Positions 3,426-39,900 of a stretch of 64,000 nucleotides of DNA are shown piece by piece; within the stretch, counting starts at the first letter, position 1, and every line of letters starts with the position of its first letter. The notes under the pieces were generated by a model. The model had not been told where the DNA came from. It worked only from the letters and a program-made list of their open reading frames with translations, and did not search any database. The stretch comes from Escherichia phage 241Ecol014PP: the sequence record OR062943.1, one strand, 5' to 3'. Both the position numbers and the translations under genes were made by a program.

Positions 3426-4709
3426 TCATTCCAGAACCTCCCAAGTATCTGGGTTAACATTTCGGACGCAGATACCGACAGGGAATTGGTAGTTGTTGTC
3501 TTCTGTCCTTGCTTGATATTTGAAGGTGACAAACTTGCCGATCATTTCCTGCATCCTGTCATAGCTACGCTCCTCGTGCGTGCCTTTCATCTTCATTTTA
3601 ACAACAACACCCTCCTTGTCAACACAGATAAGAACACCTTCATCATTCTTATCTTTCTCAACGTCAATAACTTTCACCTCTGCGTCGTTGAACTTTTTCC
3701 ATTTCAATGCTTCAGATGTTCGCTGACCATACTCATACTTACCACAGAAGTTACGCATAATGGTACCTTCATATCCTTCAGACATAAATATACCAACAGA
3801 CTCTTCGCACCGATCAACTGTATATGCAAGCTCTGCATCAACAACCTTAATATGATCAAGCATCAAAGAAGAAATAGCACCATTTGCCTCCATAAGATCC
3901 TTACAGCGCCCAGACTCTGTTTCAGGATCCCACCACACCTTATCGCTAGGGATATCGAAAATATGATACTCTAAGTCGTAGCTGCAGTACCCTCCGTAAC
4001 GCAAATCATCACGAACAGGCTCAACATCAACAGGAATGTCCATCTTATTGAAGTTTTTGTATGTTGCTAAACCTGCCTTAATCGCAGCCTGACGGCGTTT
4101 TTTATCTGCCTCATAGTCTTTATCGATCTCGGCCTGAATCTCTTCCTGTGTGCGCCACCGTTTAGCAAGAGACACTATTTTCTGCAAAGGAAGACCATGA
4201 ATGTATAGTTCCCCATCAAGTTGTTTAATCCCAGTGGTAGAATGGAAAGAACGAAGTTGCTCTAAAAGCTTTCCTTGAATAGGGTAGGACTTATTACCAC
4301 GGGAAATAAATTTAGGCTCACCATTTTGGAAAACAACAAGCAGACGAAGGCCATCTAACTTACGCAAGATCCAGCAAGGTAATTTAAGTGCCTTGCCACG
4401 CTTCAGGTAGTCATGCACCAGCATGGGTAAAAGGTCAACACCCTGCTCGCAATCTTCCATGTTTTCAACATACCCCAGACGGACTTGTTTTTCCCACTTA
4501 CTGATCGCTTCCAGCTCGGCCTGTTGCTCAGCTGTAGTTTCATTGGTACGACCCACGTTCTTAGGTGTGCAGATCGTCTCTTTGTATTGCAGTTTACCAT
4601 CAAGCTTGCCAAACTCTACGATAACCTTATCACCATCCGTGAATACTTTCCACTGTTGGTAGCTGCCATCTTTGTTCAGTGCGTACAGTGTTGTTTTGAT
4701 TTGATGCAT
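3426..4709 (-). CDS. ATP-dependent DNA ligase
   Basis: Nucleotidyltransferase motif I KLDGLR (KxDGxR), motif IV EGYEGTIMR, motif V KWKKF; 427 aa. Confidence 0.65.
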   Translation of the reverse strand: MHQIKTTLYALNKDGSYQQWKVFTDGDKVIVEFGKLDGKLQYKETICTPKNVGRTNETTAEQQAELEAISKWEKQVRLGYVENMEDCEQGVDLLPMLVHDYLKRGKALKLPCWILRKLDGLRLLVVFQNGEPKFISRGNKSYPIQGKLLEQLRSFHSTTGIKQLDGELYIHGLPLQKIVSLAKRWRTQEEIQAEIDKDYEADKKRRQAAIKAGLATYKNFNKMDIPVDVEPVRDDLRYGGYCSYDLEYHIFDIPSDKVWWDPETESGRCKDLMEANGAISSLMLDHIKVVDAELAYTVDRCEESVGIFMSEGYEGTIMRNFCGKYEYGQRTSEALKWKKFNDAEVKVIDVEKDKNDEGVLICVDKEGVVVKMKMKGTHEERSYDRMQEMIGKFVTFKYQARTEDNNYQFPVGICVRNVNPDTWEVLE

Positions 4710-8159: not shown

Positions 8160-8188
8160 TTGAAATTAACAAAACAGTTAGGTATACT
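8160..8188 (+). promoter_or_regulatory. sigma70-like promoter TTGAAA-17-TATACT
   Basis: In the 100-bp divergent region between RNA ligase (minus) and kinase (plus). Confidence 0.45.
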
Positions 8189-8216
8189 ATCGTTGAAATT
8201 AAAACGGAGGGTCACT

Positions 8217-8627
8217 ATGTCTAAAATGCTATATATCGTGCGTGGTCTACCAGGGTCTGGCAAATCAACACTGGCAAATGCGCTATCTTTAGAGGGTCTG
8301 TATCCACATTTTGAGAACGACATGTTCTGGTATGACGATGACGGCAATTACAACTGGGATGCAAGTAAAGTAACACTCGCAGCGAAATGGTGCAAAGATA
8401 ACGTAGAAGATATGATGCGTATGGGATACGACCGTATCGTGGTAAGTAATACGTTTACAAAAGAAAAACATGTGCAGGAATATGTTGACATGGCAATCAG
8501 TCATGGGTATAGTTATACCGTGATCGTGGTTGAAAACCGCCACGGTAATAAAAGCATTCATGATGTTCCAGACAAGGTTGTGGATCGTATGGAACGCCAG
8601 CTTAAAAACTGCATTAAACTTAAATGA
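8217..8627 (+). CDS. P-loop polynucleotide kinase-like protein
   Basis: Walker A GLPGSGKST near the N-terminus; ATG 8217 follows GGAGGG. The track's 8160 start would sit on the promoter. Confidence 0.55.
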   Translation: MSKMLYIVRGLPGSGKSTLANALSLEGLYPHFENDMFWYDDDGNYNWDASKVTLAAKWCKDNVEDMMRMGYDRIVVSNTFTKEKHVQEYVDMAISHGYSYTVIVVENRHGNKSIHDVPDKVVDRMERQLKNCIKLK

Positions 8628-8634
8628 GGAATGT

Positions 8635-9189
8635 ATGAAATACTTTGTAACAAGCGACACACACTTTCTCCACCAGCGGGTCATGGAGTTTGATTCATGT
8701 CAAAAACACAGATCTCAGTATGATCACAATCTTGACAGTATGAATGCGGGAATCATCGCCGAATGGAACTCTGTTGTGTCACCTGCAGACACTGTGTTCC
8801 ACTTGGGAGATATTGCGTGCACTAATGATAAGAATATCAACAACTTACTTCCAGATATTCTAAATATGTTGAACGGACATATTATTCTTGTTCGTGGCAA
8901 CCATGACACAAGGACGACTGTCAGAATTATGAAAGAGTTCGGTCATGAGGTTGTAGATTATTACGAGCTTCGCCACAACAAGAATTTGATCTGTATGAGC
9001 CATTACCAGTTTGCAAAGTGGAACAGAAAGCCTCACGGATCAGTCCAACTGTTCGGTCATGCTCACGGAACCACACAACAGTTGTTTGGCAGACAGTTTG
9101 ATGTCGGTTGGGATGTGTGGGGGAGACTCTTACCATTAGAAGAGGCATACCGTATTGCAATGAGTTTTGCTATTGACAGCGGGGAGTAA
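8635..9189 (+). CDS. calcineurin-like metallophosphoesterase
   Basis: SDTHF (D-x-H), GDIACTN (GD), GNHD (GNH[DE]), GHAHG; start placed at ATG 8635 because the D-x-H motif is N-terminal. Confidence 0.65.
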   Translation: MKYFVTSDTHFLHQRVMEFDSCQKHRSQYDHNLDSMNAGIIAEWNSVVSPADTVFHLGDIACTNDKNINNLLPDILNMLNGHIILVRGNHDTRTTVRIMKEFGHEVVDYYELRHNKNLICMSHYQFAKWNRKPHGSVQLFGHAHGTTQQLFGRQFDVGWDVWGRLLPLEEAYRIAMSFAIDSGE

Positions 9190-9236: not shown

Positions 9237-9587
9237 ATGAAAGATGGGGATAAGCTGCTATATCTTAAAGTCCCCCTTGAAATACTATCTATGTCAAAAG
9301 TTTTGAATGACACAACTGGGGAGGTTGTTGTTCTTGACTTGTATGACAAGATCGTATACTGCTACCTGCACAACTGGTATAAGCTTGGAGGAAGTTCACG
9401 CTTCACACCCAGCACAAGGAAAATTGCAGCAGATGTTGGAATAAAGAAAACAAAAGCAGCAGCGTGCGTTAAAACTTTAGAATGTGCGGGAGTGGTTGAA
9501 ATATCCACACAAGGGAGAGGTAAAAGATGCACATTTTCCAAAGTTTTGCCACCAGAAGAAGTTATTCGAATGTCAACAACTGGTTAG
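9237..9587 (+). CDS. small DNA-binding protein, helix-turn-helix-like (116 aa)
   Basis: RKIAADVGIKKTKAAACVKTLECAGVVEI looks like an HTH/wHTH segment; GGAGA RBS; iteron array lies 75 bp downstream. Confidence 0.35.
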   Translation: MKDGDKLLYLKVPLEILSMSKVLNDTTGEVVVLDLYDKIVYCYLHNWYKLGGSSRFTPSTRKIAADVGIKKTKAAACVKTLECAGVVEISTQGRGKRCTFSKVLPPEEVIRMSTTG

Positions 9588-9662
9588 ACCAGTAAAAACT
9601 TAAATATCTGTACTATAAGGATTCGTATGTTTTATGTTCGCTCTGGAACAGAGGTTAGTAAC

Positions 9663-9743
9663 TGTCCGTGATACGGACACTACTGTCCGTCACGCGGACA
9701 CATCTGTCCGTAATACGGACACTAACTGTCCGTGATACGGACA
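9663..9743. repeat. four tandem 17-bp palindromes TGTCCGT-N3-ACGGACA at 21-22 bp phasing
   Basis: Units at 9663-9679, 9684-9700 (one mismatch), 9705-9721, 9727-9743; perfect 7-bp arms. Confidence 0.85.
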
Positions 9744-9890
9744 CATAAAGAATATAACTAAAATAACTAAATAATAAAAAACAAAAGATCTAGTACTTAT
9801 GGTACTAAGTACATATACTTAACTTATGTAGAATATATTAGATCCTAAGTACTATGTTTTAAATTTATTACTTACTATGGGTAGTGTCGG
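9744..9890. other. AT-rich tract with GTACTTA/TAAGTAC inverted repeats
   Basis: agtacttatggtactaagtac and cctaagtactatg immediately after the iterons. Confidence 0.5.
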
Positions 9891-10235
9891 CCCTTCATTG
9901 GCACTCGCCTACGAGGGGCGAGATGCCGGGCCTCCCTGGTGCACACAATAACAGAAGTGCATACATGCAGGTCTGTTAACATGTGTGGGAGCGAAGCGAT
10001 AGCGCAGGCCAAAGTCCGAGCACTGATGTGGACCACCGACGAAAGCTTGCCAGCGCCGGAAGGAGTCGGTTGAGAGTCTCCCGCGCGAGCTTGGATGAAG
10101 TTTATGTGTGGAAACGGACAAGAAGGCCCCTAAATCGCTCCACAGCTATATAAACTATATCAGGTAAGGCAATCGCACCAGTTTGATAGAAAAGCTCGTT
10201 ACAAAGCGATACAGTGAGTTTTTCTATAACTTGAA
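9890..10235. other. GC-rich non-coding island
   Basis: Sharp GC rise versus flanks; only ORF is an implausible 70-aa antisense frame (9909-10121). Confidence 0.35.
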
Positions 10236-10247
10236 GAGGAGGCAGCT

Positions 10248-10826
10248 ATGAGTCCACGCAAAGATGACCGTGAAAAGATTGCAAAACGTTATCAGAATGA
10301 AGAACAGATGGAGAAAACTTTCAAGTGGAAGCCAGGTTTCCAGCGTAATCATTCTAACGCTCGTGATCGTAAGCATCCGGATAAGTGGTTAACACCGCCA
10401 AATGATGGCATTCAGGTTGGTGATGAGAAGGAGCTGTCACCAGGAAAAGATGGCAACTACATTCGCACTAAGGAAGCAGGTCCAAAGGATGACAGCTATC
10501 TTGTAGATAAGGTTCTTGACGGTATTGATGCAGGTGTTGACACTATGCGAAACCTTTTTCTTGGTTGGTATCGTACAGGGTTTTTCGACATCAAGGCTAT
10601 TCGTCGTGTTTGTGATATTAAAAAGTCTGCCTATGATGATGACTCTCTACATCGCACTCTGAGACAATACTCAGAGAGATACGGTCATCCAGTTATCACT
10701 CTTGACGATATTAACGAAGTGATGTATCATGCAGAGGTTGTTGCAGGTAGATTCGGTGATGCATATCTCGGTATTCTTTCTGCAAAAGATGAGGTAATGT
10801 TAAATAAAATTTACTATGAACGCTGA
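10248..10826 (+). CDS. hypothetical protein (192 aa), charged N-terminal region
   Basis: Strong RBS GAAGAGGAGG before the ATG; no recognisable motif. Confidence 0.5.
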   Translation: MSPRKDDREKIAKRYQNEEQMEKTFKWKPGFQRNHSNARDRKHPDKWLTPPNDGIQVGDEKELSPGKDGNYIRTKEAGPKDDSYLVDKVLDGIDAGVDTMRNLFLGWYRTGFFDIKAIRRVCDIKKSAYDDDSLHRTLRQYSERYGHPVITLDDINEVMYHAEVVAGRFGDAYLGILSAKDEVMLNKIYYER

Positions 10827-10836
10827 GGAGCGCTTA

Positions 10837-11025
10837 ATGAACAATCCGGTAGCAAAGAACTGTAATAAGTTCAACAAGTCTGCAATTCACACTGACAGGA
10901 AAAAGAGCTGGTCTCCTGACATTGACGAGGAGCTTGAGAGTTACTTTGAAGACCTGGTCACTAATGCAGATGAGGTTGCGATTAAAGAATACGCAGACAG
11001 GAAGGATAAGGCCGGAATCTGTTGA
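10837..11025 (+). CDS. hypothetical small protein (62 aa)
   Basis: In-frame ATG at 10837 after GAGGAG; the track's 10816 start overlaps the upstream stop. Confidence 0.3.
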   Translation: MNNPVAKNCNKFNKSAIHTDRKKSWSPDIDEELESYFEDLVTNADEVAIKEYADRKDKAGIC

Positions 11026-11051
11026 CAAAAATAGTGTTACCTGATAAGATC
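11023..11051 (+). promoter_or_regulatory. sigma70-like promoter TTGACA-17-TAAGAT
   Basis: -35 at 11023-11028, 17-bp spacer, TGa-extended -10 at 11046-11051. Confidence 0.5.
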
Positions 11052-11101
11052 TGCAATATGATGTGATACAATTTTAACTTACGAGGTCTACAGGTAATGC
11101 T

Positions 11102-11344
11102 ATGTTTAAGGTTAAGCTCGTTTTTCGTTCCATGAATGAGGATTATTTAGAAGATGAAGGTGAATTTCGTGCACTGGATGATGCAATAGATTTTGCCAAC
11201 GACTTAGCTTGTATGAATACAGGTTATGGGCTATGCTGTTGGGATGGTGGTGTTCAGATCGGTGATAGCAAGATCTTCTACTTCTACCCTGAGCCTGATA
11301 ACAAACAAATTAAGTATGTTTTATTTATTTGTGCTTTACAATGA
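11102..11344 (+). CDS. hypothetical protein (80 aa)
   Basis: ORF-track ORF downstream of the 11023 promoter. Confidence 0.35.
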   Translation: MFKVKLVFRSMNEDYLEDEGEFRALDDAIDFANDLACMNTGYGLCCWDGGVQIGDSKIFYFYPEPDNKQIKYVLFICALQ

Positions 11345-11399
11345 GGTTGTTTTCGTGTATCATGATGAATATCCAATTTAAAGATGAATTTGATGGCTT

Positions 11400-11633
11400 T
11401 ATCTCCGGATGCTTTGAAACAGGGTTCGGAGAAGACTGAGTTCCCCTTAGAGGGCTTGATAGTGCACCACACTTAAAATGGTAGGGGCAGCCAGCACATG
11501 ACGATGTGACCCCAGCCAACCTGTAACAAGGTCGAGCCGAAGCGCGGGTAATAGGCCTCTGGTAACCCACTTGTTGGGTCTTGCTGGTCCAGGACGCTGG
11601 ACAAGTCGCAGGGAATACCACCCTGCGGCGAAC
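11400..11633. other. GC-rich non-coding island with several hairpins
   Basis: Hairpins cacat-gacg-atgtg, gtccag-gacg-ctggac, cgcaggg-aatacca-ccctgcg; overlapping ORFs look spurious. Confidence 0.35.
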
Positions 11634-11662
11634 TTGACAATCAGTATTTGCTATGATAAAAT
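11634..11662 (+). promoter_or_regulatory. sigma70-like promoter TTGACA-17-TAAAAT
   Basis: Consensus -35 11634-11639, 17-bp spacer, TGa-extended -10 11657-11662. Confidence 0.55.
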
Positions 11663-11690
11663 CCACCTATCACGTGATAATGGAGGAAAC

Positions 11691-12029
11691 ATGGCGGATA
11701 CAACTAAAAAGCGTCGCCGTAGAGGCAGACCTCTGAAAGAGGAGTCCAACGCCATTCAGCTAGAGAAGAACATCCTTGATATGAAGGAATCTTTTATAGC
11801 GATGGTTCCAGAAGCTCACAAAGTTTTAAGAGAGCTGATGTTGGACCCGAAAACCAAACAAAATATTCGTCAAAGCATTGCAGAGTATGTTCTTGATAAG
11901 GCAGACCGAATGCAGGAAGAATATGATGAGATGTTTGGTGAAGAGGAAGAGGTGGTAGTAGAAGAGGCTGAAAAACCAGCACCTTTTATGCCATTTACTA
12001 CAGAAATACAGCCTGTTAGCAATAGCTAA
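11691..12029 (+). CDS. hypothetical DNA-binding-like protein (113 aa): basic N-terminus, acidic C-terminus
   Basis: MADTTKKRRRRGRPLKE then helical and acidic regions; could be a small terminase subunit or regulator, unresolved. Confidence 0.4.
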   Translation: MADTTKKRRRRGRPLKEESNAIQLEKNILDMKESFIAMVPEAHKVLRELMLDPKTKQNIRQSIAEYVLDKADRMQEEYDEMFGEEEEVVVEEAEKPAPFMPFTTEIQPVSNS

Positions 12030-12038
12030 AATATTTTC

Positions 12039-12067
12039 TTGACAAACTTTGCTTAACAGTGTAATAT
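12039..12067 (+). promoter_or_regulatory. sigma70-like promoter TTGACA-17-TAATAT ahead of the tRNA cluster
   Basis: -35 12039-12044, 17-bp spacer, -10 12062-12067. Confidence 0.5.
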
Positions 12068-12126
12068 TGTAAACATGGTCTCCCACCTTTTCTGGCGGCT
12101 AAGGTGTAAAAGAAAGCCACCCAGTG

Positions 12127-12330: not shown

Positions 12331-12418
12331 GGTGAGTTAATTCCGTAGGGGTAGCGGGGCAGACTGTAAATCTGTTATCATTGCGATTCGGGTGGTTCGA
12401 CTCCATCACTCACCACCA
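12331..12418 (+). tRNA. tRNA-Tyr (anticodon GTA), long variable arm
   Basis: Acceptor GGTGAGT/ACTCACC, anticodon loop CTGTAAA, T arm GGTGG-TTCGACT-CCATC, CCA encoded. Confidence 0.7.
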
Positions 12419-12721: not shown

Positions 12722-12818
12722 GCTAGGTAAGCCCTTTGGCAAGGGCGAGGATTTTTAATCCTGAAAATAGACGAGGTAGTCGTTGAATACATAGGTGGTT
12801 CGATTCCACCGCCTAGCA
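12722..12818 (+). tRNA. tRNA-like gene, non-canonical (about 97 nt); anticodon uncertain, possibly TTT
   Basis: Good acceptor (GCTAGGT/GCCTAGC), D arm and T arm (GGTGG-TTCGATT-CCACC), but anticodon arm has a 4-bp stem, the variable region is about 30 nt and no CCA is encoded. Confidence 0.35.
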
Positions 12819-12825
12819 CCTTTTT

Positions 12826-12988: not shown

Positions 12989-13411
12989 CTCCGCGTAGCT
13001 CAGCTTGGTAGAGATAATCAAAGATGCACAAATGCAGTCGTTGTGGGGAAGAAGATCCATGTAAATTTTATGGTCATAAAAAGACTATATGTGGGAAATG
13101 TCACAATGAGTACACCATGAATCTTGGGAGGCAGAAACGACAGTATGCTGTAGACAAGTTAGGCGGTAAATGTATCAATTGTGGGTTCGATAAATGGATT
13201 GTTTCTTTAGATATTCACCATTTAGACCCTAAAATTAAAGACTCTAAATTTGCTCAAATGAGAGGTTGGAGTCTGCAAAGAATTGATAATGAAATTAAAA
13301 ACTGTGTATTACTTTGTAGAAATTGTCATGCTGCCGTACATGCAGGACTTTTAGAACTACCATAACTTTGGGATCAGGAGGTCGAGTGTTCGAATCACTC
13401 CGTGGAGACCA
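12989..13411 (+). tRNA. tRNA gene interrupted by an HNH endonuclease ORF; anticodon not assignable
   Basis: 5' part CTCCGCG-TA-GCTCAGCTTGGTAGAG (12989-13014) and 3' part GAGTG-TTCGAAT-CACTC-CGTGGAG-A-CCA (13384-13411) have complementary acceptor strands, but about 355 bp lies between them. Confidence 0.45.
13024..13365 (+). CDS. HNH endonuclease (113 aa) inserted in a tRNA gene
   Basis: Cys-rich N-terminus, DIHHLDP...N...LLCRNCHAAVH HNH core; ATG is 4 nt after the tRNA D-arm. Confidence 0.6.
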   Translation: MHKCSRCGEEDPCKFYGHKKTICGKCHNEYTMNLGRQKRQYAVDKLGGKCINCGFDKWIVSLDIHHLDPKIKDSKFAQMRGWSLQRIDNEIKNCVLLCRNCHAAVHAGLLELP

Positions 13412-20527: not shown

Positions 20528-21535
20528 ATGATTACTCGTAAAGATGAATTTGGCATTGTTGATTTAGGTGCTACTCTGGACCTTGTTCCGCGTCAATTCC
20601 GACTGATTACTGGTATGGATCTGTTCGAAACCCGTCTCGGAACCTCAACAATTGCTCAGATTGAGCGTGTTGATGAAGTTGTAACCGACATTCCGGCACG
20701 CCGTCGTGGTGGTGAGCGTAACTACGTTGGTAGTGAACGTGCTCAGGTTAAAAACCTGAACATCCCGTTCTTCCCTCTGGACAAAGGCATCACCGCAGCA
20801 GATGTTCAGAACTTCCGTCGTTACTTCACCCCTGATGCTCCGAAAACTGTTCAGGACGTAGTAACCCGCGTTGTTCGCCGTATCCGTGTTTCTCATGAAG
20901 CACTGCGTGAGAAAGCGCTGTTCCAGGCTATTCTGGGTAAATCCTATGCACCTGGTGACACAACCTGTCAGTATGACTACTACACTCTGTGGGGTGTGTC
21001 TCAGAAGTCTGTTGAGATTGACCCTGCAAAAGCAGATCAGGATCCGATGGAGGTTCTGGAAGAAGCTCGTCTGCACATCGCGCTGCAAGCTGGCGATAAC
21101 GCAGCTGGCTATCGTATTGTAGCCCTGTGCTCACCAGAGTTCTTCAGTGCTATTACCCATCACCCTCTGGTAGAACTGGCATACACCTATTACGGCTCTG
21201 CTCAGGAACCTCTGCGTCGCCGTCTGGGTGCTGGCGGTCAAGACAGCGTATACCGTGTGTTTGAGCATAAAGGTATCACCTTTATCGAAGATATCTCTGG
21301 CAATATTCCTAAGAAAGAAGCTCGCATTCTGCCGATGGGTATTGATCAGATGTTCCAGCTGCACTTTGCTCCGGCAGACGATGTTAACGAAGCAAACACT
21401 CCAGCACAGGAACTGTACATGTGGTATAAACACTCTGCATACCTGCGTGAAGAGAAGATTGAATCTGAAACTTCCATGCTGGCAGTTAACACCCGCCCAG
21501 AGCTGGTTGTTAAAGTAACTCTGAAAAGTGAATAA
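20528..21535 (+). CDS. major capsid protein (putative)
   Basis: 335 aa, position after scaffold, strongly biased codon use (ctg/cgt/ggt), terminator downstream. Confidence 0.55.
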   Translation: MITRKDEFGIVDLGATLDLVPRQFRLITGMDLFETRLGTSTIAQIERVDEVVTDIPARRRGGERNYVGSERAQVKNLNIPFFPLDKGITAADVQNFRRYFTPDAPKTVQDVVTRVVRRIRVSHEALREKALFQAILGKSYAPGDTTCQYDYYTLWGVSQKSVEIDPAKADQDPMEVLEEARLHIALQAGDNAAGYRIVALCSPEFFSAITHHPLVELAYTYYGSAQEPLRRRLGAGGQDSVYRVFEHKGITFIEDISGNIPKKEARILPMGIDQMFQLHFAPADDVNEANTPAQELYMWYKHSAYLREEKIESETSMLAVNTRPELVVKVTLKSE

Positions 21536-21615: not shown

Positions 21616-22461
21616 GTGAAGAGAGCTGTATATCCAGTTGAGTATGATCCTCTATTAAGAGTTTTCAACAATCAGTTAAGTTTTTATCAATTTTTAGCAC
21701 AATATAATCCAGAAATCAATGTTGGTTTATCAGCCCTGCTGCCACCAACAGAATTCGTTATCGGCAGTGTTCACTATCCATGTAGAACGATTGTAGACTT
21801 CTTCGAGAAGATTGCAAAACATACAGGCCTGCCAATTGATACTGGTATTTCAACTATCCGTATGGGTGTTATTCTTCTGTTCTTCACAGAGAACCTTGAT
21901 GAAAGCACTTTAACACTGCAAAGCGGGGATGTCAATATCACACTCACCCCGTCAGTGTTTAAAGAGGTAGATGCGGCTTTCCAAGTTTCCGTGGCAGAGG
22001 GCCATCTATGGGACCCTGTAGGGATGCCTAAAAAAGTGACCATAAACGATGAGCAATGCAGCATTGTTTATGAAGAAGATACCCAAACTTTCACCATTGA
22101 GTGGCCTAAGAAACGTTCTCAGGTTGTAAATCTTGGACTGGTCTCTACGATAGCTCCACCGCCTGAACCAGAGCCGGAGCCGCCTGTAGGTCCTACTGAA
22201 CCTGGTGGTGGTGAAGAATCCCAAGGCCCGACTGTACCTGAGGAAGGCACTGAGCAGGATCCTGAACAGGCACAAGAATCAAGATCTTCTCGTAGTGATG
22301 TTGATGCCATACTACAGCAGGCCGCAGCTCTTAACAACGAAGATGACAAAAGTGGTTCAAAAGATGCACTCCAAACCTTCGCCAAAGAGTACGGTGTTAC
22401 CTTAAGTAAGGCAAAAACTTTCCAAAATATGATGAAAGATTTTGAGGCTGCACTGGCATAA
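21616..22461 (+). CDS. virion protein with Pro/Glu-rich low-complexity segment
   Basis: GTG 21616 after AGGAG; PPPEPEPEPPVGPTEPGGGEE stretch; the track's 21544 start lies in the terminator. Confidence 0.35.
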   Translation: MKRAVYPVEYDPLLRVFNNQLSFYQFLAQYNPEINVGLSALLPPTEFVIGSVHYPCRTIVDFFEKIAKHTGLPIDTGISTIRMGVILLFFTENLDESTLTLQSGDVNITLTPSVFKEVDAAFQVSVAEGHLWDPVGMPKKVTINDEQCSIVYEEDTQTFTIEWPKKRSQVVNLGLVSTIAPPPEPEPEPPVGPTEPGGGEESQGPTVPEEGTEQDPEQAQESRSSRSDVDAILQQAAALNNEDDKSGSKDALQTFAKEYGVTLSKAKTFQNMMKDFEAALA

Positions 22462-36970: not shown

Positions 36971-39900
36971 ATGGCTGATATTAAAGTTGTCAGAATTGAA
37001 TCTCTTCCTGCCACTACCGCAGTGACAGAGGATGATTACCTGGTTGTTCAGCAACCAGACCTGACCCGTCGTGTAAAAATTGGCGATGTTGTCCATGTGG
37101 ATGGGACTGTTTCTCATGTAATCTCCTTTAAGGAAGGTGGTAAGTTAAACGGCCCAATGGATTTTGCCTACTTCGAAGAGGAAGACCTCTACCTGCGTTG
37201 GAAAGGCGAATTTCCCCACACTGTTCCTGCACTATCTTCACCGTACTCCGATGGTGGGATTACTGACGCTGCATGGATGGTATATACAGATCCGTCCTTA
37301 AGGGAGGAGCTGGAATCTACCATTGGCGCATCTATGATCATGACAGCCGAAGGGCAGTCTGTCCAGGATGTAATGGATGTTACTGTTCAGACAGCTAACG
37401 ATGCTAAAGCACTTGCACAGCGTGTAGATTTTGGTACAGTGCACACCGTAGGCGATGTTATTCACCTTGATAACTTTGTTGGCCCTGCAGTTATTGAAGA
37501 GGGAAGAACCACCAACTACCCTTCTGTAGCAGCTGGTGAAAAATTTCTGAACGGTGTGGTATCTCGCCGTGATACTACAACTGTTGATGGTATTTTCCGT
37601 GGCGCTACCACCGGAGCCATGTACACCATTGCAGTAACCAACGGTGTAGCAACAACGAAAAGAATAGCACTTCGTGATGAATTTAAACGCCTAGAGGCAA
37701 ACAACCCAACAAGAACAGTTATCCGTGCTGGAGATGATTTAAATACGGCAGGGTACTTGCAGCTTGATGCAACAGGCCGTTGGGGTATGTGGAACCAACA
37801 AACAGCTTCGTGGCAACCTCTTGCTATAGAGCAAGGCGGCACAGGGGCTAGAGATGCCGCTGGAGTCCGTATCAATATCGGTGCTTTCTATAAGCAACGT
37901 GCAGCCCTTGAGCCAAATTTCCATATCAATAACTTGACTGGTAATCAGGATGGTGTATACTACCAGCCGATGACTGCTTATGCAACTGAGGCAAATGGTT
38001 ACCCTGCAGGTTCTGGTGCTGGTCACTTGATTGTTTGGCAGAACAATGCTAACGGCGGTACAGGTTGTCGTCAGGAATACTACCCATTCTCTAACGTAGA
38101 TGTTTGGTATTTGAGAACCTATCAGGCCAACACAAATCAGTGGACTGCATGGCAGCCGATGGTTAGACCTCGTAACGATAATACCTTTAGATCGCACATC
38201 GGTCTTGGGCCTAGAAATACCCCTACCTTCGGGCACATTTACCTGTCTCAAAGTTCTGCTGATGTTAAGTCAGCCTCGGGTATTGTTAACGGGGACAAAT
38301 ACAGCGCTGACGGTGTCCTTGAGCATGGATATAGGATCTATTCTGAGGTAAGAAACGACAATAAGGCTTGGTTGACAATCCACCTGCACAAAGGTGCAAA
38401 AGGATCTGAAACTCATAAATATTTAGGTTTCCGCGAAGACGGCGTATTAGACTGCCCTAAATATATGCAGGTTGGGGATCTTACTGGTCAGCTGACAAAC
38501 TGGGGACTTGGAGAATGGATTCGTAGTTCAGGAGCAGAAAGAGGCTTCTGGGGGTCCAAGAAAGCCGCCAAGATGGTTATCTGGGATGGTGGGATGGACG
38601 AATCCGGTAACGGCACTCTGGAATGGGGTGTTTATAACAACCGGAAGGCCAAGTGGGAACCTCTACCTCAAGCCGCAGGTGGCACTGGGGCTACAACTTT
38701 AGCAGATGCTCAGAATCTGTTCAAAGTTCCTATAGCAGCAGGTGTAAAAGACTTCTTAACACTGCCAAGAACCGCAGGGATGGAAGATGGGAAATACTAC
38801 CCAATCATCGTTAGAACAGATCCGTATTACTCCCCTGCGACAGGTGCAGATATTACTATAGTCACCAGGTCTTCATATGGAGATGACCCTATGAACTGTG
38901 CCACCCTGCAGTGTCACTATAGAACTGGCGGCTGGTCGGACAGGGGAGACTCTTTCTACGGGGTAGTAAATTTCTACCAGAATGAAAAAGCACTTCTTGG
39001 GATGGTTGCTCCAACAAGGGGTAAACAAGAGTATGTTGCTTTCTATGCAGAGGCTCGTGCTTTCCCTGTCAGCATATACGCAAGTAGAAATGTTGTCGAA
39101 GTGTTTACCAGAGAGCAAGATTATCAAGTCGGCTCTGTAACAAACAATCAGGATGGGGTTAAGTTCGTTGCACCTCTTCAATCAGCAGATTTGAATCTTG
39201 CTATTCTTGGAGATAACAACACCAATACCAGACCTATTGTTGACTTCAAAGGTACTTCAGGATTCTACACTGGTGGCGGCACACAGTGGCACTATATAGG
39301 TTCTGCTGAACGCTATGCTGTGATGAGCAAAATGAATATGCCAAAAGTCGAGCTATGGGCAGACGGTCTTGACTATTTGTGCTACGGCAGTCCTAGAAAG
39401 GCGTTATTCTCTAATGCAGGATTCCAGTGTGCATCGGAAGGAACAGAGGATCTGATCAACAACACCTTTACCTCTAAATGTGGTAATGGTGCAAGACTGC
39501 AAGGCCAGGCAGAGTTCAGATCTACTCCGGAAGCTGGTCAAGTTATCGTTCGCGATGTTGTAGGTACAGCTCATAAGTTCTACAATTTCAACAAAGACGG
39601 CACATTTTTCCCTCCTGGGGGCTATGTTTGCCAGACAGGTGCTGACTGGAACAATCAGTTTGGTAATACAAACCCCTCCAAGATAATGGCTGGCAATGTC
39701 AACGGGCCGGAAGGTTCGATGGTTGTTGGCGGGGTGTCTGTAGCATTTTCTGGGAACTATGCTTTCCAAATGGCTGGCCGCCTTGATCAGTTATACACCA
39801 GATCTATCGAGGGTGGTAACCATAGAGCGTGGAACAAGGTCATACAACACAGAGGGCAAGGTCTGGGGATTAATGACCTTAACGACTACAAAGGGGATAG

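What the first reader, a model, noticed from the sequence alone, without database searches (positions are those of the whole stretch)
9890..11633. Two GC-rich non-coding islands flanking ORFan genes
Regions 9890-10235 and 11400-11633 are much more GC-rich than their surroundings, contain several perfect hairpins and no plausible protein-coding frame. They could be structured RNAs or recently acquired foreign DNA. Island 1 has loose similarity to RNase P RNA conserved regions (CAAAGUCCGAGCA, GAUGAAG, ACAAGAAGGCCCC) but is far too short between them for a canonical RNase P RNA, so I do not call it.
Basis: seen in the sequence. Interest (0 to 1): 0.5.

Follow-up and report, generated by a model that had tools for sequence, protein, structure and literature searches.

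The report
Two conserved structured phage RNA elements
The two GC-rich islands in this rV5-like coliphage are real, conserved, base-paired non-coding elements: one sits beside the likely replication origin and recurs on small E. coli phage-like plasmids, the other heads the tRNA operon and shares a 45-base module with phage T4; neither matches a described RNA family and neither is RNase P RNA.

Summary
Observation confirmed. The islands are the two most GC-rich 200-nt stretches of the 64-kb window (0.60 and 0.57, against a mean of 0.44).

The window is an rV5-like Vequintavirus, and both islands occur in all 118 related genomes. Neither is coding. Neither hits RNase P, tRNA or any other Rfam family.

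Both show compensatory base changes, and G·U pairs favour the + strand, so structured RNA is the most likely reading.

**Island 1 (9886-10160).** It follows a replication-initiator-like gene, four iterons and an AT-rich tract. Its core is a covarying helix enclosing a three-way junction with a GNRA loop. The same core follows three other, unrelated iteron sets: two other phage lineages and 13-kb circular E. coli phage-like plasmids. I infer an origin-coupled RNA.

**Island 2 (11440-11633; 11400-11439 is the end of a real 32-aa gene).** It lies at the head of the tRNA operon, and sister phages give it its own sigma-70 promoter. Its module AACCUGUAAYAAGGUCGAG…GGUAAU also precedes vs.8 in T4-like phages, where the T4 reference annotates it as coding.

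Function is untested. No transcript data were found.

The parts
9237..9587 (+). Context: 116-aa winged-helix gene, replication-initiator-like
   Evidence: phrog_12838 'replication initiation protein', E=8.5e-80. Pfam HTH_36 and DUF6945 match below their cut-offs. Found only in genus Vequintavirus.
9659..9744 (.). Context: four iteron-like repeats (TAACTGTCCGTGATACGGACAC) spaced 21-22 bp
   Evidence: the repeat finder family D1. Annotated as repeat_region in phage inoa.
9750..9885 (.). Context: AT-rich tract (GC 0.21), candidate DNA-unwinding element
9886..10160 (+). Island 1: multi-hairpin structured element, most likely RNA
   Evidence: Similarity to diverged relative L013 begins exactly at 9886. 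Folding z = -3.1. Not coding. No Rfam hit.
9889..9933 (+). Island 1, 5' hairpin: GGCCC / GGCACUCGCC-UACGA-GGGGCGAGAUGCC / GGGCC
   Evidence: 100% of cells paired. Two pairs changed on both sides between phage and plasmid L143 (G-C to U-A, twice).
10027..10085 (+). Island 1 core. Outer helix UGUGG/CCGCG (10027-31/10081-85). Helix ACCGAC/GUCGGU (10035-40/10065-70). Inside it, a three-way junction with hairpin GCU-UGCC-AGC and a GNRA loop (GGAA, 10058-61).
   Evidence: Alignment A8, 12 sequences: 98.9% paired, 7 pairs changed on both sides, 0 of 500 shuffles as good (A8 is fitted to the model). The loop is GGAA or GUAA among relatives. Covariance model R2 scores 102 bits here and finds the plasmids and L182.
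10180..10231 (+). Nearly invariant long hairpin just upstream of the ribosome-binding site of the 192-aa gene
   Evidence: 19 predicted pairs, 98.5% paired on the + strand against 83.5% on the - strand. Nearly identical even in L013, where the rest of the region is 83% identical.
10248..10826 (+). Flanked gene: 192 aa, unknown function (phrog_12226)
   Evidence: Its homologue at 50% identity in L153 has no island-1-like leader.
11341..11439 (+). Small gene (32 aa) overlapping the stop of the 80-aa gene (ATGA).
   Evidence: 8 of 9 variable columns are at codon position 3. Annotated in phage inoa.
11440..11633 (+). Island 2: about 190-nt structured non-coding RNA at the head of the tRNA operon
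   Evidence: Conserved in 118 vequintaviruses. Sister phages (L126, L159, L179, L182, L183) place TTGACA-17-TATACT directly before GUUCCCC. Covariation.
11484..11513 (+). Island 2 stem P1: GGGG / CAGCCAG / CACAU-GACG-AUGUG / A / CCCC
   Evidence: Sister phages have GGAAC/GUUCC and CUACG-GACG-CGUAG: six pairs changed on both sides, loop GACG kept. T4-likes have GGGAA/UUCCC or GGGAG/CUCCC.
11515..11556 (+). Island 2 core module shared with T4-like and other phages: closing helix GCC/GGC, hairpin ACCU-GUAACA-AGGU, then CGAGCC-GAAG-CGCGGGUAAUA
   Evidence: 43-nt match at 86-88% identity to 466 T4-like records. Alignment A4, 17 sequences: 96% paired, 3 pairs changed on both sides, 0-1 of 500 shuffles as good. 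Model R1 scores 70 bits here and 78 bits in T4.
11565..11627 (+). Island 2, three 3' hairpins: ACCCA/UGGGU, GUCCAG-GACG-CUGGAC, CGCAGGG/CCCUGCG
   Evidence: Compensatory changes in L013 (UCCCA/UGGGA; GCUCAG/CUGAGC) and FV3 (GUCUAG/CUAGGC).
11634..11662 (+). Context: sigma-70 promoter-like site (TTGACA-17-TAAAAT) for the 112-aa gene and the tRNA array
   Evidence: 11 of 12 matches
11691..12029 (+). Context: 112-aa basic/acidic protein. In other Vequintavirinae genera it is embedded in the tRNA array.

Best explanation
Both islands are functional, base-paired, non-coding elements read from the + strand. They are most likely RNAs made as part of the early sigma-70 transcripts.

**Island 1** is an origin-coupled element. 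It lies immediately downstream of an initiator-like gene, four iterons and an AT-rich tract. The same core is kept next to iteron arrays of four unrelated sequences, while the initiator and iteron cassette is swapped. I infer that it acts in cis at replication initiation. One possibility is a folded transcript leaving the unwinding region that activates or primes the origin. Another is that it recruits a host factor.

**Island 2** is a roughly 190-nt RNA that opens the tRNA operon. It is built around a sequence-invariant 45-nt module that T4-like phages carry in the leader of vs.8. I infer that the module is a binding site for a conserved trans factor, with a host protein the most likely candidate. 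In vequintaviruses it would be presented on a free-standing scaffold, and in T4 within an mRNA leader.

Shown: conservation, non-coding status, covariation, strand bias and genomic linkage.
Inferred: transcription, the origin function and the binding partner.
For: **Composition, identity and non-coding status**
- The islands are the two GC extremes of the window.
- The window is a Vequintavirus, and both islands occur in 118 records.
- Island 1 is not coding. The T4 copy of the island 2 module is in frame with vs.8 only in T4 itself; five relatives have stops or a frame offset.

**Island 1 structure**
- Core: 98.9% of cells paired, 7 pairs changed on both sides, 0 of 500 shuffles as good.
- 5' hairpin: two further double changes.
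- The tetraloop varies GGAA/GUAA, as expected for GNRA.

**Island 1 linkage to iterons**
- Window: 4 x 21-22 bp repeats.
- L013: a different 143-aa initiator and 5 x GATACATATTTGCATCAGAT.
- Plasmids: 5 x ACCTGTTGGAATTTCCCACAGGT.
- L182: 4 x AAGGGCCAAATAATGGCCC.
- Similarity to L013 begins exactly at the island's 5' edge.

**Island 2**
- P1, the closing helix and the 3' hairpins covary. The GACG loops and the core sequence are kept.
- Sister phages give it its own promoter.
- In other Vequintavirinae genera, tRNA genes occupy the equivalent position.

**Strand**
- Every supported helix pairs better on the + strand (96-100% against 84-94%) because of G·U pairs.
Against: - There are no transcript data, and no literature on these elements was found.
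- No convincing promoter lies directly upstream of island 1 in any of the four contexts. Its transcription must be read-through or undetected.
- No terminator follows either island.
- Island 2's folding energy is not unusual (z = -1.5).
- Much of the island 1 covariation comes from two deep splits (phage against plasmid, and L182), so the number of independent events is small. Alignment A8 is also fitted to the model.
- The origin itself is inferred from sequence features only.
- The homologue of the 192-aa gene shows that island 1 is not needed by that gene, but nothing shows that replication needs it.
Confidence: 0.55

Rival explanations
1. Island 1 works as single-stranded DNA. It would be a single-strand initiation or primosome-assembly signal, exposed when the adjacent AT-rich tract melts and recognised by host primase, PriA or RNA polymerase. 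This resembles the hairpin-rich ssi signals next to plasmid origins.
For: - The element is always next to iterons plus an AT-rich tract, in replicons with four different initiator specificities.
- It is shared between a phage and plasmids of the same host.
- No promoter is found directly upstream.
- Both strands fold equally well (z = -3.1 and -3.3).
Against: - The supported helices are rich in G·U. The conserved UGUGG/CCGCG helix has 2 of 5 such pairs, which would be weak as G·T in DNA.
- The loop varies as a GNRA loop would.
- Orientation always follows the downstream genes, even where the element is inverted relative to island 2 in L182.
- There is no similarity to the phage G4 complementary-strand origin.
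Confidence: 0.17
2. Both islands are purely cis-acting parts of polycistronic early mRNAs. Island 1 plus the 10180-10231 hairpin would be a regulatory or stabilising leader for the 192-aa gene. Island 2 would be a 3' stabiliser or processing site that separates the upstream small genes from the tRNA operon. On this view there is no role in replication and no free RNA.
For: - There are no terminators and no dedicated promoters in the window.
- In L013, island 1 stays joined to the 192-aa gene while the upstream cassette changes.
- RNAalifold pairs the island 1 5' end with the Shine-Dalgarno region of that gene.
- The T4 copy of the island 2 module is an mRNA leader.
Against: - In the plasmids and in L182, island-1-like elements are followed by promoters and different genes.
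- A homologue of the 192-aa gene lacks the leader.
- Sister phages transcribe island 2 from its own promoter.
- Strict sequence conservation of loops across unrelated phages is more than a stabiliser needs.
Confidence: 0.2
3. The islands are remnants without function: decayed tRNA genes, decayed ORFs or recently imported foreign DNA.
For: - tRNA genes occupy the equivalent place upstream of the 112-aa gene in other genera.
- GC content is close to that of the host.
- Some database records annotate ORFs there.
Against: - The islands are conserved at 90-100% identity in 118 genomes, with compensatory rather than random changes.
- ARAGORN and the Rfam tRNA model find nothing.
- E. coli chromosomes contain no match to either island; the only matches are to island 1, on plasmids.
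- Substitutions are not biased by codon position.
Confidence: 0.04
4. Island 1 is a minimal or degenerate RNase P RNA (or SRP RNA) homologue.
For: - It contains words resembling RNase P conserved regions I and V (seen in the sequence).
- The plasmid copy gives a weak hit to the bacterial SRP model, 20.8 bits, E = 1.3.
Against: - No RNase P model hits at E<=10.
- The RNase-P-like words vary among close relatives.
- The SRP score is half the gathering score, and the covarying helix pairs GUCGGU with ACCGAC rather than forming the SRP domain IV hairpin.
Confidence: 0.01

Closest known systems
Origin-associated RNAs (ColE1 RNA II preprimer, R6K gamma-origin activator RNA, T4 oriF/oriG R-loop transcripts, lambda transcriptional activation of ori). 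From my own knowledge.
   Same: A transcript that passes or leaves the unwinding region of an origin and acts in cis on initiation. Island 1 lies directly beside the iterons and AT-rich tract, in the sense orientation.
   Different: - No sequence or covariance-model similarity.
- No evidence of a persistent RNA-DNA hybrid or of processing.
- Island 1 is portable between iteron systems of different specificity, which none of these is known to be.
Single-strand initiation signals and primosome assembly sites of plasmids and small phages (G4-type, phiX-type, F Frpo). From my own knowledge.
   Same: Hairpin-rich elements of 100-300 nt placed next to plasmid origins. They are conserved across replicons with different initiators because a host enzyme reads them.
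   Different: - Island 1 helices depend on G·U pairs.
- It has a GNRA-type loop.
- Its orientation tracks transcription.
- It has no similarity to the G4 complementary-strand origin.
T4 stable RNAs C and D (species 1 and 2) in the tRNA cluster
   Same: Phage-encoded stable non-coding RNAs co-located with the tRNA genes, function still unknown (annotated in NC_000866). Island 2 sits at the head of the tRNA operon.
   Different: - No sequence similarity seen on reading the two sequences.
- T4 RNA C ends in a tRNA-like T arm; island 2 has none.
- ARAGORN and the Rfam tRNA model find nothing in island 2.
GOLLD and ROOL large phage-associated RNAs
   Same: Structured non-coding RNAs of phages, often next to tRNA genes, function unknown.
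   Different: They are several-fold larger. Their Rfam models give no hit on the window or on related loci.
Bacterial RNase P RNA
   Same: Short words resembling conserved regions I and V; GC-rich and multi-helix.
   Different: - No model hit.
- The words are not conserved in relatives.
- No P4-type pairing.
- The size is too small.

Membership tests
RNase P RNA (bacterial A/B, archaeal, type T) | Match to an Rfam covariance model | tested here: not met
   No RNase P hit at gathering score or at E<=10 on 9600-12100.
RNase P RNA (bacterial A/B, archaeal, type T) | Universally conserved CR-I/CR-V nucleotides forming P4 | tested here: not met
   AAAGUCCGAGC is AAAGGCCGAGC in FV3, rV5, Aya and L013. 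GAUGAAG and ACAAGAAGG also vary. In the predicted fold GUCCG pairs locally with CGGAC.
Bacterial SRP (4.5S) RNA | Covariance-model score at or above gathering, and a domain IV hairpin | tested here: not met
   20.8 bits against a gathering score of 40, E = 1.3, on a plasmid copy only. Covariation supports a different pairing.
tRNA / tRNA-like | Cloverleaf recognised by ARAGORN or Rfam RF00005 | tested here: not met
   ARAGORN finds tRNAs only from 12126 onward. No tRNA hit in the islands at E<=10.
Any Rfam 15 family | Hit on the window or on homologous loci | tested here: not met
Iteron-type replication origin (context of island 1) | Initiator gene next to the repeats | tested here: met
   PHROG 'replication initiation protein', E=8.5e-80; winged-helix matches. 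The label is an annotation, not a tested function.
Iteron-type replication origin (context of island 1) | Three or more direct repeats in helical phase, followed by an AT-rich tract | tested here: met
   Four repeats spaced 21-22 bp. GC 0.21 over 9750-9885.
Iteron-type replication origin (context of island 1) | Replication actually starts here | not testable with these tools
   Only indirect: the cumulative GC skew has its minimum near 8.0-8.25 kb, confounded by the switch in gene orientation.
G4-type single-strand initiation signal | Sequence or structure similarity to the G4 complementary-strand origin | tested here: not met
   Sensitive blastn of G4 3861-4025 against the islands and plasmid copies found only 9-10-nt chance words.
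Structured RNA (general) | Compensatory base changes that keep helices across relatives | tested here: met
   Island 1 core: 7 pairs changed on both sides, 0 of 500 shuffles as good. Island 2 core: 3 pairs. P1 and the 3' hairpins also covary.
Structured RNA (general) | A transcript exists | not testable with these tools
   Only promoter-like sites: upstream early promoters in the window and a dedicated promoter in sister phages.

The most novel reading that the evidence does not exclude
Island 1 is a previously unrecognised, portable 'origin RNA' module. It would be a folded transcript (three-way junction with a GNRA loop) that iteron-type replicons of coliphages and small phage-like plasmids place beside their unwinding region. 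It would work with any initiator/iteron pair, for example by priming or by recruiting a host replication factor. Island 2's 45-nt module, shared with T4, would be a second unrecognised element that binds a host factor.
Probability: 0.3. Interest if true: 0.8.

Novelty: new variant of a known kind. Interest (0 to 1): 0.58.

Why it matters
rV5-like phages are widely used in phage-therapy cocktails and in model collections, yet these two elements are either unannotated or annotated as small hypothetical proteins.

If island 1 is an origin-coupled RNA that works with interchangeable initiator cassettes, it adds a component to iteron-type origins. It would also give a handle for mapping and engineering replication in this phage group and in the 13-kb phage-like plasmids.

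Island 2 exposes a conserved RNA module in phage T4 itself, in a stretch the reference genome annotates as protein. This gives a directly testable target in the best-studied phage.

Both elements provide seed alignments for new RNA families.

Tried and rejected
- **RNase P RNA.** No model hit, and the resembling words vary among relatives.
- **SRP RNA.** The hit is below threshold, and covariation contradicts the fold.
- **tRNA or tRNA remnants.** ARAGORN and Rfam are negative.
- **A four-way-junction (cloverleaf-like) fold of island 2**, closed by GGCUUG/CGAGCC. RNAalifold predicts it, but it has no compensatory support, the outer pairs break in L013 and L126, and the 5' strand is absent from T4-likes. 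Not adopted.
- **Mimicry of 16S rRNA decoding-site sequences by the island 2 core.** GUAACAAGGU equals 16S 1497-1506 and CGCGGUAAU equals 16S 526-534. Exact-word matches are no better than shuffles (110 of 2000 and 400 of 2000), and the loop varies (GUAAUA, GUAGCA).
- **Similarity to the G4 complementary-strand origin** and **to T4 RNAs C and D**. None.
- **Protein coding.** The ORF78 frame shows no codon-position bias. The T4 reading frame over the module is closed in relatives.
- **Host origin.** E. coli chromosomes have no match.
- **Counterparts in other Vequintavirinae genera** (KB57, SSE121, Hena1, 4MG, CR8). None by blastn, nhmmer or covariance models.
- **Pattern scan of genome contigs for the island 1 core.** Only two partial matches in GC-rich MAGs, judged to be chance.
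- **Literature searches** for vequintavirus or T4 non-coding RNAs at these loci. Nothing relevant.
- **Single-sequence folding energy.** It could not separate the strands.
Full report
**What the window is.** The region 9600-11700 is 90-99% identical to 118 phage records of the genus Vequintavirus (rV5-like E. coli myophages; a few are labelled Campylobacter). Genes here run on the + strand behind a series of strong sigma-70 promoter-like sites, at 11022, 11335, 11634 and 12039. A tRNA array starts at 12126.

The two islands are the two most GC-rich 200-nt stretches in the whole 64 kb (0.60 and 0.57). The mean is 0.439 with sd 0.037, and only 0.4% of windows reach 0.545.

The boundaries can be sharpened:
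- Island 1 begins at 9886, the exact point where similarity to a diverged IMG/VR relative (L013) begins.
- Its GC-rich part ends near 10160.
- Positions 10180-10231 form a separate, almost invariant long hairpin just before the ribosome-binding site of the 192-aa gene.
- Island 2 begins at 11440. The 40 nt before it are the end of a 32-aa gene (11341-11439) that overlaps the preceding stop codon (ATGA). Eight of its 9 variable columns fall on codon position 3.

**Not coding, and not a known RNA.** The frame that the rV5 record calls ORF78 (9983-10153) stays open in close relatives. Its variable columns are spread 13/16/15 over the three codon positions, and it has a stop in L013. The other frames carry stops in relatives.

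Rfam 15 finds only the tRNAs at gathering score. It finds nothing credible in 9600-12100 even at E<=10, and no RNase P model at all. ARAGORN finds no tRNA in either island.

**Island 1 is a base-paired element shared with plasmids.** In the phage collection it occurs only in vequintaviruses. A search of complete E. coli genomes found patches at 85-87% identity on small circular plasmids of 13.2-13.7 kb, plus a 39.6-kb one with three copies. All copies lie in unannotated DNA.

The differences between phage and plasmid copies are compensatory:
- The 5' hairpin changes G-C to U-A at two pairs.
- Helix ACCGAC/GUCGGU becomes GCUGCC/GGCAGC, with three pairs changed on both sides. The 24 nt it encloses (GAAAGCUUGCCAGCGCCGGAAGGA) are invariant.
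- Among vequintaviruses the tetraloop is GGAA or GUAA, the variation expected of a GNRA loop.

A covariance model of this core (R2) found a further, distant copy in sister-group phage L182 (28 bits, E about 1e-5 to 2e-4). There the helix is GACGGC/GCCGUC and the inner hairpin is AGC-GAA-GCU instead of GCU-UGCC-AGC. Over 12 sequences, 98.9% of cells pair and 7 of 16 pairs have changes on both sides. No shuffle of 500 does as well, and slid controls pair 30-57%. One caveat applies: that alignment is fitted to the model, and the changes come from few deep branches.

**Island 1 always follows an iteron array.** In the window it lies after three features:
- a 116-aa winged-helix gene that PHROGs labels a replication initiation protein;
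- four repeats of about 22 bp spaced 21-22 bp apart;
- a 136-bp tract with GC 0.21.

In L013 this whole left-hand cassette is replaced by a different 143-aa gene and five unrelated 20-bp repeats, yet island 1 follows unchanged. On the plasmids it follows five 23-bp repeats of a third sequence. In L182 it follows four repeats of a fourth sequence and an AT-rich stretch. There it is inverted relative to island 2 but still in the sense of the genes downstream.

A homologue of the 192-aa gene at 50% identity has no such leader. The consistent partner of island 1 is therefore the iteron/AT-rich module, not the downstream gene. I infer a role in cis at a replication origin.

No convincing promoter lies directly upstream of it in any context. 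Its transcription would have to be read-through from the initiator gene's promoter, or undetected. This is the weakest point of the RNA reading, and it keeps a single-stranded-DNA priming signal alive as a rival. Three points argue against that rival:
- the helices lean on G·U pairs (21 of 160 cells in the core);
- they pair 100% on the + strand but 87% on the other strand;
- there is no similarity to the phage G4 origin.

**Island 2 is an RNA at the head of the tRNA operon, with a module shared with T4.** A 43-nt stretch (11512-11555) matches 466 T4-like phage records at 86-88% identity, in the spacer between denV (or whichever gene is upstream) and vs.8.

The T4 reference genome starts vs.8 early enough to translate this stretch. 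In five relatives the frame has stops or is out of register with the vs.8 start, so the stretch is a non-coding leader.

The same core occurs in a 75-kb viral contig (L012) and in two metagenomic contigs inside a large unannotated region (L024, L124). It also occurs in a sister group of vequintaviruses: L126, L159, L179, L182 and L183. In that sister group a consensus promoter (TTGACA-17-TATACT) sits immediately before the conserved 5' end GUUCCCC. There, at least, island 2 is its own transcription unit, followed by the promoter of the 112-aa gene and the tRNAs.

Covariation in island 2:
- Stem P1a is GGGG/CCCC, GGAAC/GUUCC, GGGAA/UUCCC or GGGAG/CUCCC.
- Stem P1b is CACAU/AUGUG or CUACG/CGUAG, with the GACG loop kept.
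- The helix that closes the core is GCC/GGC, ACC/GGU, GCA/UGU or GGC/GCC.
- The 3' hairpins change compensatorily in L013 and FV3.

The core itself (hairpin ACCU-GUAAYA-AGGU, then CGAG…GYGCGGUAAU) hardly varies in sequence across unrelated phages. That points to recognition by a conserved partner rather than to structure alone.

In other Vequintavirinae genera, tRNA genes directly precede the 112-aa gene, in the place island 2 occupies here. No island 1 or island 2 homologue is found in those genera.

**What I could not establish.** Function, transcription and any binding partner remain untested. Several appealing resemblances failed their tests: RNase P, SRP RNA, tRNA-like folds, mimicry of the 16S decoding site, G4-type origins, and T4 RNAs C and D. 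Literature searches returned nothing on these loci.

**Verdict.** The finding is real, and the reading as structured RNA is supported. The elements match no described family.
- The best-supported functional inference for island 1 is origin coupling: moderate confidence in the linkage, low confidence in the mechanism.
- For island 2 it is a free-standing early RNA carrying a factor-binding module that T4 uses in an mRNA leader: low to moderate confidence.

Noticed in passing
L145 (NZ_CP020521.1, whole record); also CP148565.1, NZ_CP035869.1, CP134895.1, NZ_CP178698.1, NZ_CP043822.1: Circular E. coli 'plasmids' of 13.2-13.7 kb (one of 39.6 kb with three copies of the island-1-like match). They encode a major capsid protein, a baseplate protein and a tape measure protein. 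They also carry about 2.9 kb of non-coding DNA with iterons and the island-1-like element. The capsid protein is about 22% identical to those of roughly 145-kb myophages. They may be satellites or mini phage-plasmids linked to rV5-like phages.
   Followed up: partly
L151 2846-2913 (NC_000866.4 64845-64912, minus strand): The T4 reference annotation starts vs.8 27 nt after denV, so it translates the conserved RNA module. In five T4-like relatives this frame is closed or out of frame. The T4 start is probably the downstream ATG.
   Followed up: yes
window 11341-11439: A 32-aa ORF that overlaps the preceding stop (ATGA), with substitutions almost only at third codon positions. It is probably a real small gene. 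It is annotated in only some vequintavirus records, and it is truncated to 8 codons in sister phage L126.
   Followed up: partly
window 10180-10231: [quoted passage not shown] It is almost invariant even in the relative that is 83% identical elsewhere. It may be a translational operator or a processing site.
   Followed up: partly
window 8160-9189 and upstream (- strand): A P-loop kinase (AAA_33), a metallophosphatase and an Rnl1-like RNA ligase lie next to the initiator gene and the tRNA array. This looks like a tRNA/RNA-repair gene set comparable to T4 Pnk/Rnl1.
   Followed up: no
window 12331-12415 and 12722-12820: Rfam calls a tRNA at 12331-12415 (39 bits) that ARAGORN does not report. ARAGORN reports an odd tRNA with a four-base anticodon at 12722-12820, annotated 'tRNA-OTHER' in phage inoa.
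   Followed up: no
L024 (minus strand, about 880-1500) and L124: Metagenomic contigs carry the island 2 core inside an unannotated region of about 600 nt that is conserved between the two contigs and has no Rfam hit. In L024 a weak tRNA match (41 bits) follows, and there is a weak YrlA-like hit at 3462-3590. This may be a larger relative of island 2.
   Followed up: partly
phage records MG0656xx: Eighteen records named 'Campylobacter phage' are 97-98% identical to E. coli vequintaviruses over this region. The host labels look doubtful.
   Followed up: no
window 9775-9870: The AT-rich tract contains inverted copies of AAGTACT (TAGTACTTA … TAAGTACT), separate from the iterons. They may be a second protein-binding site at the origin.
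   Followed up: no
window 20681-21240, 22131-22330, 38491-38690: The next most GC-rich 200-nt windows (0.535-0.56). I did not check whether they are coding.
   Followed up: no
window 13024-13365: An HNH-type endonuclease ORF (113 aa, CxxC…HH motifs) immediately after the tRNA cluster. HNH genes also lie beside the tRNA arrays or the island 2 core in Hena1 and L012.
   Followed up: no
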